Assembly: GCA_964016885.1 (NCBI GenBank)
Contig: OZ024742.1
Span: 304,978,001-305,042,000, forward strand
DNA from: Eledone cirrhosa
Lineage: Eukaryota
Direction of reading: 5' to 3'
Length of the DNA: 64,000 nucleotides
Of this stretch, positions 1-58,696 are shown in pieces. A program made the translations under genes and the position numbers. Under the pieces are notes generated by a model that saw nothing but the letters and a program-made list of their open reading frames with translations, did not search any database and was not told the origin of the DNA. Every line of letters begins with the position of its first letter. The stretch's first letter is position 1.

Positions 1-2039
1 ACCATTACTGTCACGTCATCAGCGTAGGCCGATACGGCTTTCCGCAACCGAGGTTCCAAGGGGATGCCCTGCACCAACTCTAACTTCCACAGCAGTGGCT
101 CGAGAGCCAGCACATACAGAAGGGAGGAGAGAGGGCACCCCTCTCGAATGGACCGCGCGATTTGGAACGGCTCCGAGAGGTAGCCGTTCTCCTTGACCCT
201 CGAGCAGATGCGGCTGCTGTGCATGGCAGTAATCCAGCCCCTGAAAACGGGTTCGAAACCTGCCGACGCTAGCACCGCATCCAGGTAACCATGGTCGACC
301 ATATCGAACACGTTAGATTGATCCAAGTTGATCAGGGCCCCACCAAAGCCGGGTTCATTCGTTACCCCCACTATGATGTATCTCATGAGGTGGATGTTGT
401 CGTGAATGGACATGGACGGGATAGCGCATGTCTGCGCATCTCCCACCAGGTTACCCACGACAAGCGCCAACCTCTTTGCTAACACCTTGGCCAAAATCTT
501 TAACTCCGCATTTAGCAGAGTTATGGGCCTGAAATTACTTATTTCATCCCCCTTGTTCTCGTCCTTCCACACTAGCGAGACTACGCCCTTGGTCACAGAA
601 CAGGGAATTCTCCCGTTCTGTTACCAGTTGCAGTAGACCGCCTCGAGGAGATCGGGGAAAAAGTCCGACATCGCTACATAAAGTTCGTATGGAAGACCAT
701 CGAGACCCGGGGATTTGCGTTTGCCTATCGCAGGACATTGCCTCCTCGTTCGAAAAACGCGGTAGGCCGTCGAGGTATGGACCGAAATCCACATCCCCAT
801 CCGGCCCCCGCCCCTCCCGAACAGTCGTGCAAAGTGCCTTTGAAAGCCCTCACACATCTGTCCAAGTTCAAGGATCACCCGTCCATCCTGGACCTTCAAA
901 GACCTGATAGTGGATTTAATCCCACTTTTGGCTTCTGTCACGCGGACCCAGCTAACAGTTTTGGCCCCCTCGTTTCCTAGAGCACGTATTTCACTTCTGA
1001 CAACGCAGCCTTCGTGCTTCGCGTCGAAAAACTGGTCTAAGGCCGTTCTCGACGCTAGCACTCTGGCTACGTTGCCGCTTCTAATCATCGCCTCTTCTAC
1101 TCTATCTACAACTCCCTTTCCTTCCTATTCCTATGTGAGGCTAATTCCTTACTAAAACCTATCGAGACTACTCTAATCTCTCTCTCTTGAGAGAGCCCCA
1201 CCACCTGCTGTTGACGATAGCACCCGTCAACCGTTCCTTAAATAAAGCACTAATCCGATCCCTGTAAGCTTTACTTACCGGTAAGAACAAGTTCAGCTTC
1301 CAGTAACCGGGTCCCTGTCTATGCGTTCTATGAAGGTTGACTAAGCAGGTCACTAATTTGTGATCTGAATAGCCAACGATGCGCATCTCTGGACAACTTA
1401 CTAGGTCCCTATCCTTATTTCTAACTAGGACCCTATCTACGTACGACCTAGATGATCCGCTAAGGTTAGTCCAAGTCCAGGTTGGCGCAGTCGGAAAATC
1501 TAGTCGATATCTATCGGCCAGGTCAAATCGGCCGATTAACCGTTTGAGGCTCTTACACCCCCCTCTATCGGGACATGCCCCTACATAGTCCCAACGTGCA
1601 TCTAGGATACCATTCCAGTCCCCCACTAAAAGCAAGGAGCGGGACGTCCCTAGAAAAGTCTCCAGACGTTAGAAGAAGTCCGGCCTCGCTGCCCCAAAAG
1701 GGGCATAGGCGGCGACCAGCCTAAAGGCCCCACCTTCACCACTGCCAACGTCTAGTACCACCAGTCGACCCTCCGGGCCCAAGTGCACCGTCTGCGTTGC
1801 GAGACCCAGGTGTTTTTGAAGCAGAACGACAACCCCACCCCACCTCCTGGCTGATAGAGAGATGCATAGATCTCAAAGTCGTTAAAGGTGAGGGCTAGCT
1901 GGCGTTCGTTGCTGACCCTGGACTCGCAAATAGCCATGACATTTATACTGAGCGACCTGAGGTCATTTAGAAGTTTTGCCTGCTTCCAAGGTGAGCTCAG
2001 GCCACGCGCATTCAAACATCCTACTCTCAATACAGCTAT
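1..2039 (-). pseudogene. LINE ORF2: apurinic endonuclease + reverse transcriptase (frameshifted)
   Basis: APE motifs RVGCLNARGL, ICES, LVGDWN, SYVDRVL, SDHKLV, GPGYWKLN. RT motifs KSPGLDGLPYELY, FRPITLLNAELKILAK, GCPLS..LYVLALEPLL and SAYADDVTV (YADD at 26-15). The likely start codon is mutated to ATA (2039-2037), and there are several frameshifts. Confidence 0.92.
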
Positions 2040-3984
2040 GTTGGCGGCGAAGGGGAAGAAAAAGAAAAAGCACCTACACCCTTACGTCCCGGGGACCGGG
2101 CTGCACAACTTCCATGGGGGTGAGGGAGGGGTTGTTGGGTGGGTGGTGGTTTGTGGACATCAGAGTGTGGTGGGGTTGGCGTGTTTGGTGTGGTGTGGGT
2201 GTCTGGGGTGGGGTGGGGAAATATTTCAAGAGGATGCGGTTCATTGGTTTTATACAGGGGGGGGGGGGGGGGCACGTCCTCAGGGAAATTATCTTTTAGT
2301 TCTATATAAATGTCTATCGGAGTTTTAATCATTTTTAAAGAGGGGTTCTCTGTGTCCCTCGTGAAATTTGGCCCTTCGGTTTGCCCCGAGGGGTTTTGTT
2401 CAATTTTGTTTACAAGTTTTATATTTTTTGTGTTGAAGTATGTGTATAGCTGTGTCTGTGTAATGTTTGTTGGTTTTTGTTCTTGTTTTTGGTATGGGTT
2501 ATTTTTCTTTGTGTGTTTTCTTTTTTTTGCGCTTTATTTTTTGGAAGGGTTCCCCCTCGTCTTCTGACGTTAAGGGATCCTTTTCCATGCGGGAGGGGAG
2601 GGGTATATTTGGGGGTTTTGCTATGTATGTTGTTGGAGTTGATTTAGGTGGGGAGGAGTTGGGTGGGACCGTGTTCAGTTTTTTGTTGACATGTTGTGTT
2701 TGTTGTTTTTGAGGTGGTGGTGGTGGTGGTGGTGATTGTGTTTTTGTTTGTGGAGTTGTTTGGGGTGTGGAGGGGTTGGGTGGGTCCATGTACAGTTTTT
2801 TGTTGACTTGTTGTGTTTGTTGTTGGTGTGGTAGTGGTGGTGGTGGTGTTGTTGTTTTTGGAGGTGTTGGCAGTAAAGGTATTTTAGTTTGTTGAGGAGA
2901 GGCAGCCCTCAGGTGACCTCTGCCTCCACAGAAGTAGCAAGCGGGCCGCCTACCCGCAGCTGCAATGTTCATAAATTGGGAGCCTTCCAGGGACACACTT
3001 TGGGGTATCTTTGCGATACGTTCTGGTTTAATTCGAACCAGAACCTGTATGCCTATACCGCCGAAGTGGCCCCTGGTGGCTTTGCCTATATCAAGGAGTT
3101 AATCTTCGTCGTCCAGTGTCCCTCCTAGTATCCACCACATATTTGTATTTGGGTGTATACCGGAGATTGTTATTTTTTTAGTTTTCTTCCCCATGTAGGT
3201 GGGGAAGAAAGTGTACTGTTTGGACACAATTGGCGACACCGAGTATTTTTGGGCCACCAATTGGTCCTTCATCAAAATTGTGAGACTCTCATATAACTTC
3301 CCTCTCTCAATAAAAACGTGTCCTTCAACGCGTCTTTTAACACCAGCTCAATTTCGCTATGCGATAATTGAGGTGGTTTTTTCGACGCATTTGATATAGT
3401 TCTAAAATTAATTATCCTTAGGACCGTGTCTCTTTTAATATCCTTAGAGGAGATTATGGTGAATTCACCGTTTTCACCAAAGCTCACCCGTTTTCTCCCC
3501 TCTTTTAGCAATTCCGCTGCATTACTGGGGTGAAAGTTTCGGTCTCCTTAACGACCTGGGCAAAGGATATTCGTGTAGTGGGGTCTTTTTTGTGTGTGTT
3601 TCGTTGCTGTTGTTCTTCTTTTCTTGGGTATTTGCGTTTTGGTCGTTGTTGTTTGCGGTACAGTTTTTTGGGTTTTCACCCATTTTTTCGTGTTTTGAGT
3701 TCACATTTATATTGTTATCTTTGTCATTGTTGCTGCTGTTTGTGTTATTTTCTTTGTTATTTGTGTTGGTGTTGTTGGTGTCAGTGTAATTTATACATTC
3801 TTTATTTACTGTTTCCATTGTTTGGGTTATTACCCAAGTTTTTACAATTGTTCGCCAAATCCACTTCCATACTCGCATGCGAAAGCGAGAGAAGGGAAGC
3901 TTCAGTAGGTTGAGTTACTTGTTCCTCTTTATCACTTTCCCTGGGGGGGGGCGTGACAGTGATGTTTTCATGTATGGTGTCCAT
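2036..3984 (-). pseudogene. LINE ORF1 (gag-like, zinc knuckle, Pro/Thr/Asn-rich), frameshifted
   Basis: ATG at 3984-3982 (MDTIHENIT...), followed by a chain of minus-strand ORF pieces. Includes CYFCGGRGHLRAA (CCHC knuckle with the last Cys lost) and a basic KIKRKKKK tract, directly upstream of ORF2. Confidence 0.75.
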
Positions 3985-13830: not shown

Positions 13831-13868
<38 letters not shown>

Positions 13869-13948
13869 GACCTGTTATTTTTATCTAAATACATTTTTTT
13901 CTAATTCCAACCCGCCCGTTCCTTCAATCTATCCCATTTCTCATTCTT

Positions 13949-13984
13949 TCTTCTGATGAAGGACTAACGTCCGAAACGTCAAGA
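13949..13984 (+). ncRNA. Minimal type I hammerhead ribozyme (PLE-type)
   Basis: TCTT-CTGATGA-A-GGAC-TAAC-GTCC-GAAA-C-GTC-AAGA: stem I TCTT/AAGA, 4-bp stem II, palindromic ACGT stem III, GUC cleavage triplet. Confidence 0.85.
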
Positions 13985-14065
13985 CCCTATTCTTGCTATT
14001 TCAAGCGTTAACCTAATATATTCCTTCCATATACTGTACCGAATGTGTTGTTATTTCTGTTTAAC

Positions 14066-14162
<97 letters not shown>

Positions 14163-15037: not shown

Positions 15038-15719
15038 TTAATTGTAAGTTGTGATGCTGCTATTCCATTCATGTTTTCTATTTAATTTTGGTTGGAGTTC
15101 ATTTATGTTTATTGCCTCTGTGATTTGTCTAAACATTGCGTCTTTTCTGTGTGTAGATTTTATTTTTATTTCTATGTTCTCTAATTTGCCCTTATGTTCT
15201 ATTTTAGCATGTTGGTGGAGTACTGATGAATCTTTTCTATCTCGAAGCTCTCGCCAGTGTTCATTTAATCGTTCTCCTATACTACGAGCTGTCTTACCTA
15301 TGTACACTATATTCGTATCTTTACATTGTCCTTCAGTACATCTTATGCTATATACTATGTTTCTAGTTTTACAGTTATTATGGGGGCTTAGTTTACAGAT
15401 TATGCATTTCTTATCTATAGAGGGAGGTCTTTGAAAATGGTATGTATTACTAATAAGTGTTTTTATGGAGGTACCTGGTCTTTCTCTACTATCTTAATAT
15501 TCTCTACTATCTTAATATTTGTAAGCTAATTCACCTCTAGATTGATGAACATTACACTCTGGTATTTATTGCTATCATACTTTATTCCTAGTTCTTTCTA
15601 TTCTATTCCAAAATGTGCTCCTATACAAGGGGCAGGTCCCATTTGTATAATTATTTACCATTGTTTCCCATTTGGTTCTGACTCCTCTATATACTCTGAT
15701 TTTATCTCTCTGATTGTAA
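15038..15719 (-). pseudogene. Inverted copy of the PLE ORF 3' end (Cys linker + GIY-YIG endonuclease)
   Basis: YIGKTARSIGERLNEH...LHQH...RQITEAINI...PKLN, nearly identical to the plus-strand copy, with small deletions. Confidence 0.88.
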
Positions 15720-15721
15720 TC

Positions 15722-16626
15722 CTCCATTCCCATTATGTCAAACCCATGACTTCCAAATATCTGATCCACCGAAACTTAGCTGTTTCGGATCACACCAAAA
15801 TCAACATACTGATTGCGGATTTAGTACGGGTTATGAGAAACGTGTCCCGCATGTTCAACCCCAAAGAACTAGAGAGACACATACAACACTTCATCCACCG
15901 TATGCAGTTCTCTGGTTACAATCAGAGAGATAAAATCAGAGTATATAGAGGAGCCAGAACCAAATAGGAAAAAATGTTAAATAATTATACAAATGGGACC
16001 TGCCCCTTGTATAGGAGCAAATTTTGGAATAGAATAGAAAGAACTAGGAATAAGATTAATAGAATAAACTCATGGTATGATAGCAATAAATACCAGAGTG
16101 TAATGTTCATCAATACAACCCCTAGAGGTGAATTAGCTTACAAATTTAGAAGGGCCATAGATAAACTTAAACTAAATATTAAGATAGTAGAAAGACCAGG
16201 TACCTCCATAAAAACACTTATTAGTAATACATACCCTTTTCAAAGACCTCCCTGAAATGCATAATCTGTAAACGAAGTCCCCATAATAACAGTAAAACTA
16301 GAAACATAGTATGTAGCATAAGATGTACTGAAGGACAATGTAAAGATAAGAACATAGTGTACATAGGTGAGACAGCTCGTAGTATAGAAGAACGATTAAA
16401 TGAACACTGGCGAGAGCTACAAGATAGAAAAGATTCATCAGTACTCCATCAACATGCTAAAATAGAACATAAGGGCAAATTAGAGAACATAGAAATAAAA
16501 ATAAAATCTACACACAGAAAAGACGCAATGTTTAGACAAATCACGGAGGCAATAAACATAAATGAACTCCAACCAAAATTAAATAGAAAACATAAATGGA
16601 ATAGCAACATCACAACTTACAATTAA
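15722..16626 (+). pseudogene. PLE ORF C-terminal part: RT thumb, Cys-rich linker, GIY-YIG endonuclease (in-frame stops)
   Basis: HYVKPMTSKYLIH..K..L...RVMRNVS...RMQFSGY; FINTTPRGEL; KIVERPG; CxxC...VCSIRC...C; YIGETARSIEERLNEH; EAINI...PKLN. Stops at ~15967 and ~16255. Confidence 0.9.
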
Positions 16627-16822
16627 GGACAAAATGAAAAGACACACACATAGAACAAACAACCAACAAGTAACATGTAAATAAAGAAATAAATAAACAA
16701 ATAAAAACACACACAGACACCCGGATGTAACACATGCGCAAATTAAGCACACAACACACACAAAAACAAGATGGCGTAGGACATTACAAAGGAGAGGCAC
16801 AAAACAAAGAGAAGAATCCCCA

Positions 16823-16865
16823 GTCATTGAAGAGGTCGCAGAAGGTGTGACGAAAGAACTTTGAC
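16823..16865 (+). ncRNA. Type I HHR in the PLE 3' UTR/pLTR
   Basis: GTCA-TTGAAGA-G-GTCGCA-GAAGG-TGTGAC-GAAAG-AA-CTT-TGAC. The inverted copy has the canonical CTGAAGA at 14838-14832. Confidence 0.72.
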
Positions 16866-17069
16866 AATATATGAAAAACCGTCCGGTTGTGGAACCAACC
16901 AACCGGAAATTTAAAATTCTTAAATTTATAAATTTAATTTATAATAAATTGGAGTGAAACAACTGGTGCGTGTGTTTCGTATTGGCAACATGACCCTCCC
17001 AAAGTATAACAATATCGGTTTCAACACACGTTTTCAGATAAAGAATCTTGCTAAACAAATTCAGAAACG

Positions 17070-17100
<31 letters not shown>

Positions 17101-17311: not shown

Positions 17312-17505
17312 CGTTATTCCTGGTTGAATCGGAGGTAACCACAGTAAGTAAGGTACTCAATACATAGCAGAGTATAACAGTTTTAATATAGATGAGATTC
17401 TACAGGACTAGAACTGTTTCATTCATTAGAAATCATCAGGAATCTCCTGATGATTTCTAATGAATGAAACAGTTCTAGTCCTGTAGAATCTCATCTATAT
17501 TAAAA

Positions 17506-17507
<2 letters not shown>
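17311..17507. mobile_element. Short snap-back PLE-derived insert in (TA)n with perfect 63-bp inverted arms
   Basis: Arms 17379-17441 and 17445-17507 with a 3-nt spacer; extra ~68-nt tail at 17311-17378; contains an HHR. Confidence 0.85.
17394..17446 (-). ncRNA. Complete type I HHR
   Basis: Minus strand: GAGATTC-CTGATGA-T-TTC-TAAT-GAA-T-GAA-ACAG-TTCTAGTC-CTGT-A-GAATCTC, giving a 7-bp stem I, 4-bp stem III and GUA site. Confidence 0.82.
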
Positions 17508-19631
<2,124 letters not shown>

Positions 19632-21364: not shown

Positions 21365-21848
21365 TTCGTTTCTGAATTTGTTTAGCAAGATTCTTTATCT
21401 GAAAACGTGTGTTGAAACCGATATTGTTATACTTTGGGAGGGTCATGTTGCCAACAAGAAACACACGCACCAGTTGCTTTCACTTCAATTTATTATAATA
21501 AATTTATAAATTTATGAATTTATAAATTAAATTTCTGGTTGGTTGGTTGGTTCCACAACCAGATAGTTGTTTATATATTGTCAAAGTTCTTTCGTCACAC
21601 ATTCTGTGACCTCTTCAATGACTGGGGATTCTTTTCTTTGTTTTTGTGCCTCTCCTTTGTTCTGTCCTACGCCATTTTGTTTCTGTGTGTTGTGTGCTCA
21701 GTCTGCGCATGCGCCACATCTGGGTGTCTGTGTGTGTTTATATTCGTTTATTTATTTGTTTATTTACATGTTACTGGTTGGTTGTTTGTTCTATGTGCGT
21801 GTGTGTTTTCATTTTGTCCTTAATTGTAAGTTGTGATGTTGTTGTTGT
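21365..21848 (-). mobile_element. Solo 3'-terminal (pLTR) copy of the same PLE family, in (TA)n
   Basis: Colinear reverse complement of ~16607-17068, with (TA)n on both sides. Confidence 0.9.
21580..21622 (-). ncRNA. Type I HHR in the solo pLTR
   Basis: Minus strand: GTCA-TTGAAGA-G-GTCACA-GAATG-TGTGAC-GAAAG-AA-CTT-TGAC. Confidence 0.72.
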
Positions 21849-56401: not shown

Positions 56402-57450
<1,049 letters not shown>

Positions 57451-57574
57451 AAGAGAAACATAGAATATTCGAAAATATTCTGTATGTTTATAATAAACAT
57501 TTTGAAGACCTAATCGCTATAGGATAGAATACGTCACGTATTACAATTTGAGATTCTCGACAAAAGCAAGGGAA

Positions 57575-57617
57575 GTAACCTACGCGTTTCATTCTTATTA
57601 GAAATCTTCAGGATTAC
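57575..57617 (-). ncRNA. Type I HHR, unit 1
   Basis: Minus strand: GTAATC-CTGAAGA-T-TTCT-AATA-AGAA-T-GAA-ACGCGT-A-GGTTAC. Confidence 0.85.
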
Positions 57618-57886
57618 ATATCCAATGCTTTTATCGAGAATGACACAGCTAGAGACTTATAGAATACTTAGCTGTGTACAGGAACTGGTTTGAAAGAGCG
57701 GTTGCCGGTCCGGCAGAAATTAGAATTTGGATTTAATGCTCTGAAATAGCGATATATATGTGAAGAGAAACATAGAATATTCGAAAATATTCTGTATGTT
57801 TATAATAAACATTTTGAAGACCTAATCGCTATAGGATAGAATACGTCACGTATTACAATTTGAGATTCTCGACAAAAGCAAGGGAA

Positions 57887-57929
57887 GTAACCTACGCGTT
57901 TCATTCTTATTAGAAATCTTCAGGATTAC
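57887..57929 (-). ncRNA. Type I HHR, unit 2
   Basis: Identical to unit 1. Confidence 0.85.
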
Positions 57930-58198
57930 ATATCCAATGCTTTTATCGAGAATGACACAGCTAGAGACTTATAGAATACTTAGCTGTGTACAGGAACTGG
58001 TTTGAAAGAGCGGTTGCCGGTCCGGCAGAAATTAGAATTTGGATTTAATGCTCTGAAATAGCGATATATATGTGAAGAGAAACATAGAATATTCGAAAAT
58101 ATTCTGTATGTTTATAATAAACATTTTGAAGACCTAATCGCTATAGGATAGAATACGTCACGTATTACAATTTGAGATTCTCGACAAAAGCAAGGGAA

Positions 58199-58241
58199 GT
58201 AACCTACGCGTTTTATTCTTATTAGAAATCTTCAGGATTAC
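58199..58241 (-). ncRNA. Type I HHR, unit 3 (G12->A, predicted inactive)
   Basis: GAAA is changed to AAAA by the substitution at 58214. Confidence 0.75.
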
Positions 58242-58696
58242 ATATCCAATGCTTTTATCGAGAATGACACAGCTAGAGACTTATAGAATACTTAGCTGTG
58301 TACAGGAACTGGTTTGAAAGAGCGGTTGCCGGTCCGGCAGAAATTAGAATTTGGATTTAATGCTCTGAAATAGCGATATATATGTGAAGAGAAAAAAAAA
58401 ATTGTGCAAGTGACAGCTGTAGAGTACTCAGACATCCAAGAAAGGAAGGTGACCTTCATAGAACATATTTCTCTGGTGGAAACCGCGAACAAATAAGTTC
58501 AAAACATCATCATTGTTCTCAACAGCTGACCTTTGGACAATTCTCTTTGGAATGTTATAATGGAAATTAAGGAAATCTATCAACGGTCACAATAGCAGAA
58601 AAATTTGTTAAATGTATGTTTGTGTGTGTGTGTGTGTATAAAATATTAATAAGTAAGAACAAGGTTTCAAAGTATTATAATTAATTTTATTCATGT

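What the first reader, a model, noticed from the sequence alone, without database searches (positions are those of the whole stretch)
57447..58394. Candidate octopus non-LTR retrozyme: 3 x 312-bp tandem array with a hammerhead in each unit
Seen: an exact 312-bp period, and each unit has a minus-strand type I HHR (6-bp stem I, CUGAAGA, GAAA, palindromic ACGCGU stem III, GUA site, cut between 57581/57580 and 57893/57892). Stem I is prolonged by a distal helix (ATTCTCGACAAAAGCA / TGCTTTTATCGAGAAT). The rest of the unit is a chain of hairpins (AAACATAGAATATT..AATATTCTGTATGTTT, AATACGT.ACGTATT, ACACAGCTA..TAGCTGTGT, TGCCGG.CCGGCA) with no ORF. The single difference I saw between units hits catalytic G12 in unit 3. 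Known: metazoan tandem repeats of a few hundred bp with minimal type I HHRs (newt satellite 2, schistosome SM-alpha, non-LTR retrozymes) self-cleave as dimers, give monomeric and circular RNAs, and are thought to be mobilised by PLE enzymes. Inference: a read-through transcript would release one 312-nt monomer between units 2 and 1, and the array is a rolling-circle cDNA inserted at a (TA)n tract. Alternatives: local tandem duplication of a PLE tail (the junction holds a short TATATAT), or an assembly artefact.
Basis: partly seen in the sequence, partly recalled or inferred. Interest (0 to 1): 0.9.

Follow-up and report, generated by a model that had tools for sequence, protein, structure and literature searches.

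The report
Jumping ribozyme repeat that captured snoRNA
This 3 x 312-bp hammerhead repeat is one of thousands of dispersed copies whose insertion ends match those of Penelope-like retrotransposons, so it is likely copied by a Penelope-type enzyme from a predicted small circular RNA, and this copy is fused to a piece of a U14-like snoRNA intron that it likely picked up in the same event.

Summary
The array (57447-58394, 312-bp period, one mismatch at catalytic G12 of unit 3) and its minus-strand type I hammerhead are real. It is a young copy of a dispersed non-LTR retrozyme family: 1,855 exact core copies, and 27,371 copies of a motif shared with sister families whose stems covary. The new information lies in the other loci. 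Of 67 mapped, 51 are head-to-head two-armed arrays in (TA)n. In 48 of these 51, one arm ends at a short site (monomer 132-141) and the other about 30 nt further on (158-174); none has two like ends. This is the Penelope-like (PLE) 'tail plus inverted copy' signature, and a co-resident RT+GIY-YIG PLE family shows the same rule. Both arms carry one haplotype (43 of 49) and read through the cleavage site, which fits a circular template. The window copy is an exception: one short-ended arm fused to a 222-bp piece (221/222 identical) of a U14-like snoRNA intron from another chromosome, in the same sense, probably by template switch. Not shown: cleavage, expression, circles, the autonomous partner, the species. 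Known class; the insertion mechanism is newly readable from these loci.

The parts
56402..57443 (.). (TA)n target tract into which the array's RNA 3' end runs
   Evidence: 113 of 117 family outer ends run into TA vs 22% of random positions in the same loci
57447..58394 (-). Single-armed retrozyme array, 3.04 units; RNA 3' end at monomer position 134 (short, S, site), 5' end at position ~122
57581..57892 (-). One complete 312-nt monomer between the two intact cut sites (predicted linear or circular RNA)
   Evidence: z -5.35; circular fold
57575..57617 (-). Type I hammerhead, unit 1: stem I GUAAUC/GGUUAC, CUGAAGA, stem II with U.U base, GAAA, self-complementary stem III ACGCGU, cut 57581/57580
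57887..57929 (-). Type I hammerhead, unit 2, cut 57893/57892
58199..58241 (-). Hammerhead, unit 3, carrying G12>A at 58214 (predicted inactive)
   Evidence: 1 of 221 units carries this change
57553..57641 (-). Distal helix (57553-57568 with 57626-57641) extending stem I, repeated in each unit
   Evidence: 8 of 13 pairs with changes on both sides across 10 sister monomers
57725..57761 (-). Two fixed insertion-end sites of the family: S in the AU tract (monomer 132-141) and T (mode 168), with the ~27-36-nt PLE-type 'tail' between them
58394..58615 (-). Captured piece of a U14-like snoRNA host intron, 221/222 identical to G000:C5:33004085-33004306; same sense as the hammerhead strand; joined at an A/U run
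58424..58518 (-). SNORD14/U14-like box C/D snoRNA copy inside the captured piece; its one change lies in the terminal stem
   Evidence: Rfam RF00016 45.7 bits, E 4.5e-8, below gathering 64; source copy 49.9 bits

Best explanation
This is a young copy of a dispersed hammerhead repeat family (a non-LTR retrozyme) that is likely inserted by a Penelope-like RT/GIY-YIG enzyme, which would nick (TA)n DNA on both strands and prime reverse transcription at two fixed sites of a predicted self-cleaved, circularised 312-nt RNA; in this copy the cDNA likely switched template onto a U14-like snoRNA precursor instead of meeting a second arm. Shown: the array, dispersal, TA targeting, two-armed head-to-head layout, one short and one tailed end, one haplotype per locus, read-through of the cut site, and the U14-like piece with its source. 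Inferred: transcription, dimeric self-cleavage through the palindromic stem III, ligation to a circle, and priming at S by pairing of the TA end with the RNA's AU tract. Also inferred: priming at T with about 2 nt of homology, joining of the two cDNA ends by microhomology, and the template switch. Odds by step: PLE enzyme about 0.85, circular rather than uncleaved linear template about 0.6, U14 capture in the same event about 0.65.
For: Dispersal: 175 matches from 40 of 746 candidates scored, full-length units 97-100% identical; 1,855 exact core copies, control 0; 27,371 tail-motif copies, control 1. Layout: 51 of 67 loci are head-to-head; 48 of 51 are S+T, 0 S+S, 0 T+T, 3 T+other; in the position-ordered set 25 of 27 are S+T. 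TA: 113 of 117 outer ends. PLE signature in print: inverted 5'-truncated copy, 30-40-bp tail often at one end only, (TA)n targets (PMC8557442 passages); two internal RT start sites bounding the tail, both strands nicked and extended, predicted dimer (PMC11167929 main text). In-genome control: an RT+GIY-YIG family has 11 head-to-head pairs in held loci, 9 clean short/tail, 2 approximate, none with like ends. Template: both arms share a haplotype in 43 of 49 loci vs permutation mean 7.4, max 16. Inner ends are not enriched at the cut site, 10 of 118 vs 8.7 expected; 59 of 102 arms pass at least two cut sites. RNA-level selection: 18 of 38 pairs change on both sides, 0 of 500 shuffles reach this; core 3-8 pair C-G in 4 and U-A in 6 of 10; stem III stays wholly or largely self-complementary in 7 of 10. 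U14 piece: 221/222, co-directional, starts at a U-run, as young as the array.
Against: No autonomous partner was found. Two co-resident PLE families show no BLAST similarity to the monomer, and no PLE ORF adjoins an arm. PAc in vitro inserts mainly uncleaved RNA and needs no HHR activity (PMC11167929), so a linear multimer can explain read-through. Eight of nine Xenopus dimers did not cleave in vitro (bioRxiv 10.64898/2026.07.22.740005). Variants confined to one arm or to neighbouring units (L019, L030, L035, L044, L047, L064, L076, L083) are not expected from a single circle alone. L082 pairs one arm with a different 465-bp HHR repeat. The 10 aligned monomers fall in about 4 related groups, and the structure was partly derived from that alignment. 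Rfam does not recognise the HHR. The U14 junction is seen in this assembly only.
Confidence: 0.72

Rival explanations
1. PLE enzymes mobilise the family, but from uncleaved linear multimer transcripts of existing arrays; the hammerhead is a pLTR relic or acts at another stage, and array length is kept up by local tandem duplication.
For: PAc uses unprocessed RNA in vitro and no reads ended at its cut site (PMC11167929). Neighbouring units share private variants. The 2026 preprint proposes local amplification of pLTR-derived units.
Against: Core and stems are conserved with covariation across families 72-95% alike. Inversion junctions are not inherited: 2 repeats among 51, one pair with identical flanks (L084/L085) and one with swapped arms. 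Units within an arm differ by only 0.25% (158 of 63,621 nt).
Confidence: 0.2
2. The U14-like piece is independent of the retrozyme insertion: DNA-repair filler, a separate retrocopy, or an assembly chimera. The window array is then an ordinary one-armed insertion.
For: The piece is contiguous genomic intron sequence, so DNA could have been the template. No laid contig spans the junction. The junction is an A-run with only 1-3 nt of overlap.
Against: It abuts the array's random inner end exactly where the second arm normally joins, has the same sense as the HHR strand, comes from an abundant-RNA locus on another chromosome, and is as young as the array (1/222 vs 1 mismatch in the array).
Confidence: 0.3
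3. The arrays spread by a DNA route (extrachromosomal circles or fold-back repair at TA microsatellites) or by a LINE enzyme, with no PLE involved.
For: TA tracts are fragile, the genome holds many LINEs, and L073 and L079 join an arm to LINE sequence.
Against: DNA routes give no reason for two fixed RNA-sense 3' ends or for the one-S-one-T rule. There is no poly(A) or 3'-terminal priming. The same rule holds for the resident RT+GIY-YIG family.
Confidence: 0.08

Closest known systems
Metazoan non-LTR retrozymes (coral, mussel, axolotl; PMC7229834; review PMC7761336)
   Same: Tandem ~300-bp low-GC units, one type I HHR per unit, weak palindromic stem III, U.U at the base of stem II (as in axolotl HHR_Amex2), no ORF, thousands of dispersed copies, highly paired monomer.
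   Different: The parts of those papers I read describe no inverted two-armed insertions, fixed ends or tail. The review says the repeats show no motif pointing to the mobilising element. Expression and cleavage are shown there, not here.
EN+ Penelope-like elements: Penelope/Poseidon, Neptune, Naiad (PMC8557442, PMC3846280, PMC11167929)
   Same: Head-to-head inverted 5'-truncated copy, ~30-nt tail at one end only, (TA)n target, HHR upstream of two internal start sites, capture of intron-containing host DNA.
   Different: No ORF; both arms are concatemers of one 312-nt unit; no autonomous element with this pLTR was found.
Retrozymes as pLTR derivatives (bioRxiv 10.64898/2026.07.22.740005)
   Same: Proposes PLE origin and PLE mobilisation.
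   Different: Its evidence is co-occurrence and pLTR homology, mainly in vertebrates; 'tail', 'head-to-head' and 'target site' do not occur in its text. Here the evidence is insertion geometry, and pLTR homology was not found.
L1 twin-priming inversions and L1 chimeric or snoRNA retrocopies (recalled; PMC2837659 and PMC1687206 seen as search listings only)
   Same: Outward-facing 3' ends in one insertion; a host small RNA copied into the insertion, likely by template switch.
   Different: Both arms here start at fixed sites and overlap in sequence; no poly(A); the enzyme is likely PLE-type, not L1.

Membership tests
Non-LTR retrozyme | Tandem monomers of 150-450 bp, GC below 50% | tested here: met
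   312 bp, 34.6% GC
Non-LTR retrozyme | Type I hammerhead in at least two consecutive units | tested here: met
   Motif in units 1 and 2, with covarying stems and 3-8 pair; Rfam score is weak
Non-LTR retrozyme | No protein-coding capacity | tested here: met
   Longest stop-free stretch 43 and 56 aa
Non-LTR retrozyme | Dispersed multi-copy family | tested here: met
   1,855 exact cores; 67 loci mapped
Non-LTR retrozyme | Self-cleavage of the RNA | not testable with these tools
   Needs in vitro transcription
Non-LTR retrozyme | Expressed as linear and circular monomer RNA | not testable with these tools
   No usable RNA run; genomic read-through of the cut site is indirect only
Non-LTR retrozyme | Target site duplication | tested here: inconclusive
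   Both flanks are TA microsatellite, so a TSD cannot be read
PLE-mobilised insertion | Inverted 5'-truncated copy, head-to-head | tested here: met
   51 of 67 family loci; the window copy itself lacks it
PLE-mobilised insertion | 30-40-bp tail at one end only | tested here: met
   48 of 51 loci, tail ~27-36 nt
PLE-mobilised insertion | Microsatellite or AT-rich target | tested here: met
   113 of 117 outer ends
PLE-mobilised insertion | Homology to the pLTR of an autonomous PLE | tested here: inconclusive
   None with the two PLE families examined; other PLE families were not surveyed
Autonomous PLE | RT + GIY-YIG ORF | tested here: not met
   No ORF in the unit or contiguous with any arm
SNORD14 / U14 | Rfam RF00016 at gathering score | tested here: not met
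   45.7 bits vs 64, though E 4.5e-8 over the full model; hence 'U14-like'
SNORD14 / U14 | Boxes C and D plus both conserved guide blocks | tested here: met
   Alignment; four scored copies in L032, five by motif at the source locus

The most novel reading that the evidence does not exclude
Animal retrozyme circles are inserted by a Penelope-type dimer that primes from both DNA ends at two obligatorily different sites, one short and one tailed, and rolls both ways round the same RNA haplotype. The strict one-S-one-T rule would show functional asymmetry in PLE integration. The same reaction can jump onto host snoRNA precursors and retrotranspose them.
Probability: 0.4. Interest if true: 0.8.

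Novelty: new variant of a known kind. Interest (0 to 1): 0.62.

Why it matters
Which enzyme moves animal retrozymes, and how PLEs make their tandem/inverted/tail structures, are both stated as open in the papers read (PMC7761336, PMC8557442, bioRxiv 10.64898/2026.07.22.740005). This family offers thousands of very young, ORF-free insertions with two nucleotide-level start sites, a coupling rule between the ends and haplotype-marked templates. That gives a 312-nt substrate and exact predictions for an in vitro PLE reaction. The window copy adds a candidate route for snoRNA retrocopies in an invertebrate. The class itself is known, including in a mollusc.

Tried and rejected
Autonomous partner: not found. 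The GIY-YIG family of window 15041-15493 (38,181 candidates, 150 scored) and the HHR family of window 13868-14069 (3,283 candidates, 40 scored) have no similarity to the monomer. Tail-motif loci were all retrozymes or fragments (13 representative loci of 30 inspected). The L079 neighbour proved to be a LINE fragment, not a PLE. Expression: no RNA holder listed, which is no evidence either way. Laid contigs: summed depth on the unit was 1.6-4.2e5 in X1 vs about 9-13 on the flanks of the U14 piece, but run types are not on record and depth is not copy number. X3 gave one 342-nt contig closing on itself, which a collapsed DNA repeat also gives. X23 had no reads laid. No listed piece spans the U14 junction, which proves nothing. 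Rfam scan of 7 of the 16 one-armed loci found no further captured RNA beyond HH9-like hits in L082. Test for linear monomers as template (inner ends at the cut site): negative; inner ends are mildly non-uniform (KS p 0.024). Arm lengths are uncorrelated (rho 0.14, p 0.32). Unconstrained co-folding did not form the dimeric hammerhead, so dimer cleavage rests on the palindrome and on the literature. Earlier scan notes: three look-ups, nothing returned. Literature searches; none listed a cephalopod retrozyme or retrozyme insertion geometry. The supplement of PMC7229834 could not be read and the preprint's supplements are closed; either may bear on novelty. Most subscription papers are outside the library.

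Full report
Observation. The array is real: period 312 from 57447 to 58394, with one mismatch between units, 57902 vs 58214. On the minus strand each unit reads stem I GUAAUC, CUGAAGA, stem II, GAAA, ACGCGU, A17, then GGUUAC. The mismatch is G12>A in unit 3, found in 1 of 221 aligned units. The monomer folds at z -5.35, has 34.6% GC and no stop-free stretch above 56 aa. Rfam gives no gathering hit in the window and only 16.9 bits for HH9. The species label was not tested; the genome is 3.0 Gb in 1,796 contigs.

Family. The monomer search scored 40 of 746 candidates and gave 175 matches; full-length units are 97-100% identical. An exact 21-nt core pattern occurs 1,855 times. A degenerate tail motif shared with sister families occurs 27,371 times, control 1. 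Ten monomers from about four related groups (79% mean column identity) keep the structure: 18 of 38 pairs change on both sides, 0 of 500 shuffles reach this, and slid controls give 1-2. The core 3-8 pair is C-G in 4 and U-A in 6. Stem III changes sequence yet stays wholly or largely self-complementary in 7 of 10, as expected for a dimeric hammerhead. The structure was partly taken from the same alignment and the rows are related, so this is strong support but not a probability.

Insertion geometry. I mapped 67 other loci: 35 best-scoring ones and all 40 loci among the first 100 listed core matches on contig C1, with 8 in both sets. Two extra neighbouring arms (in L037 and L067) were set aside. 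Numbering starts at the cut site. Of the 67, 51 are two-armed and head-to-head, with RNA 3' ends facing outward. In 48 of 51 one arm ends at S (132-141, in an AU tract) and the other at T (158-174, mode 168). None is S+S or T+T, and 3 are T plus a shorter end. The position-ordered set gives 25 of 27. L084 and L085 share junction and flanks, so the independent count is about 47 of 50. Of 16 one-armed loci, 11 end at S, 4 at T and 1 elsewhere; a few have a second arm below my 28-nt cut-off. Outer ends run into TA in 113 of 117 cases vs 22% of random positions. Inner junctions mostly overlap by 0-5 nt.

This is the PLE signature. PMC8557442 (passages) describes inverted 5'-truncated copies, a 30-40-bp tail often at one end only, and (TA)n targets. 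PMC3846280 (passages) describes head-to-head inverted pLTRs and capture of intron-containing host DNA. PMC11167929 (main text, parts 1-2 of 4) shows a PLE protein nicking and extending both strands from two internal start sites that bound the tail. As an in-genome control, an RT+GIY-YIG family shows two fixed ends 56 nt apart, both in TA. Of 11 head-to-head pairs in held loci, 9 are clean short/tail and 2 approximate, with no like-ended pair (only the 3' 951 nt was used as query, so contiguity between arms was not checked in five). That family is not similar to the monomer, so it is a control, not the partner. The partner was not found.

Template. Both arms carry the same haplotype in 43 of 49 informative loci, against a permutation mean of 7.4 and maximum of 16; the other six differ at one column. 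Inner ends are not enriched at the cut site (10 of 118 vs 8.7), arms reach 1,649 nt, and 59 of 102 arms pass two or more cut sites. Linear self-cleaved monomers are therefore not the template. A circle fits best. An uncleaved multimer is not excluded: PAc prefers unprocessed RNA in vitro, and some variants are confined to one arm or to neighbouring units, which points to local duplication or to two templates. L082 joins an arm head-to-head to a different 465-bp hammerhead repeat, so the two ends can apparently use different RNAs.

The window copy. It has one arm, ending at S (position 134) in the 1-kb TA tract. Its inner end, position ~122, is joined through ten A's to 58394-58615, which is 221/222 identical to G000:C5:33004085-33004306. 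That piece holds a SNORD14-like snoRNA (45.7 bits, E 4.5e-8, gathering 64). Its source locus carries five such copies and no long ORF. The snoRNA has the same sense as the hammerhead strand, and the piece begins at a U-run about 30 nt past box D. The simplest reading is that the cDNA primed at the TA tract ran three times through the unit, jumped with its AAA end onto an unprocessed U14-like intron RNA, and was joined to the right flank. DNA filler or an assembly chimera remain possible; the junction is known from this assembly only.

Comparison and verdict. The class is known. PMC7229834 (results and discussion, parts 2-4 of 6) shows cleavage and circles in coral, mussel and axolotl and names PLEs as candidates. 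PMC7761336 (passages) says the repeats give no motif pointing to the mobiliser. bioRxiv 10.64898/2026.07.22.740005 (parts 1-3 of 5, plus term search) argues PLE origin from co-occurrence and homology, leaves the mechanism open, and saw cleavage in 1 of 9 dimers. Eight searches listed no report of inverted two-armed retrozyme insertions or of cephalopod retrozymes; unread supplements and closed journals may hold one. Hammerhead numbering, the U3-A8 variant and the L1 comparisons are recalled. I file this as a non-LTR retrozyme on all sequence tests, with cleavage and expression untested. It is a new variant in that its insertions expose PLE chemistry. Interest 0.62; confidence in the overall mechanism 0.72.

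Noticed in passing
window 17313-17510: A fixed 198-bp element in TA with two inverted hammerhead cores related to this family's core. It has 697 candidates, and all 40 scored are 96-100% identical over nearly the whole length, inversion point included. Unlike the retrozyme arms, its junction is constant, so it moves as a unit or both arms stop at a fixed RNA end.
   Followed up: partly
window 15038-15493, 16134-17071, 21366-21841: Pieces of a very abundant RT+GIY-YIG PLE family (38,181 candidates) with a CxxC-like motif before the nuclease; fixed short and tailed ends 56 nt apart in TA.
   Followed up: yes
window 13868-14069: 3' end of another PLE-like family with a minimal hammerhead (3,283 candidates, 92-94% alike); it carries a GCTATTTCA word like the retrozyme tail.
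   Followed up: partly
L082 3545-4694: Head-to-head join between a retrozyme arm and a different 465-bp repeat with an HH9-like hammerhead (37 bits), bounded by TA on both sides.
   Followed up: partly
L079 4392-5070; L073 2400-4622: Arms joined at their inner end to LINE sequence: a ~310-nt same-sense internal fragment in L079 and an opposite-sense element in L073. These are possible further chimeras or later insertions.
   Followed up: partly
G000:C5:33003600-33006300 (L032, L087, L088): Apparently non-coding host locus with five U14-like snoRNA copies on the minus strand.
   Followed up: partly
L004, L037, L075, L076, L080: Sister retrozyme families (~316-318 bp) with a UUGAUAA core (U3-A8 instead of C3-G8) and similar two-ended insertions in TA.
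   Followed up: partly
G000 genome-wide: Strand imbalance of the exact core pattern (736 forward, 1,119 reverse), not seen for the tail motif (14,054 vs 13,317); it may mark a long one-way array somewhere.
   Followed up: no
window 621-3914: Fragmented LINE-like ORFs (endonuclease and RT pieces) on the minus strand.
   Followed up: no
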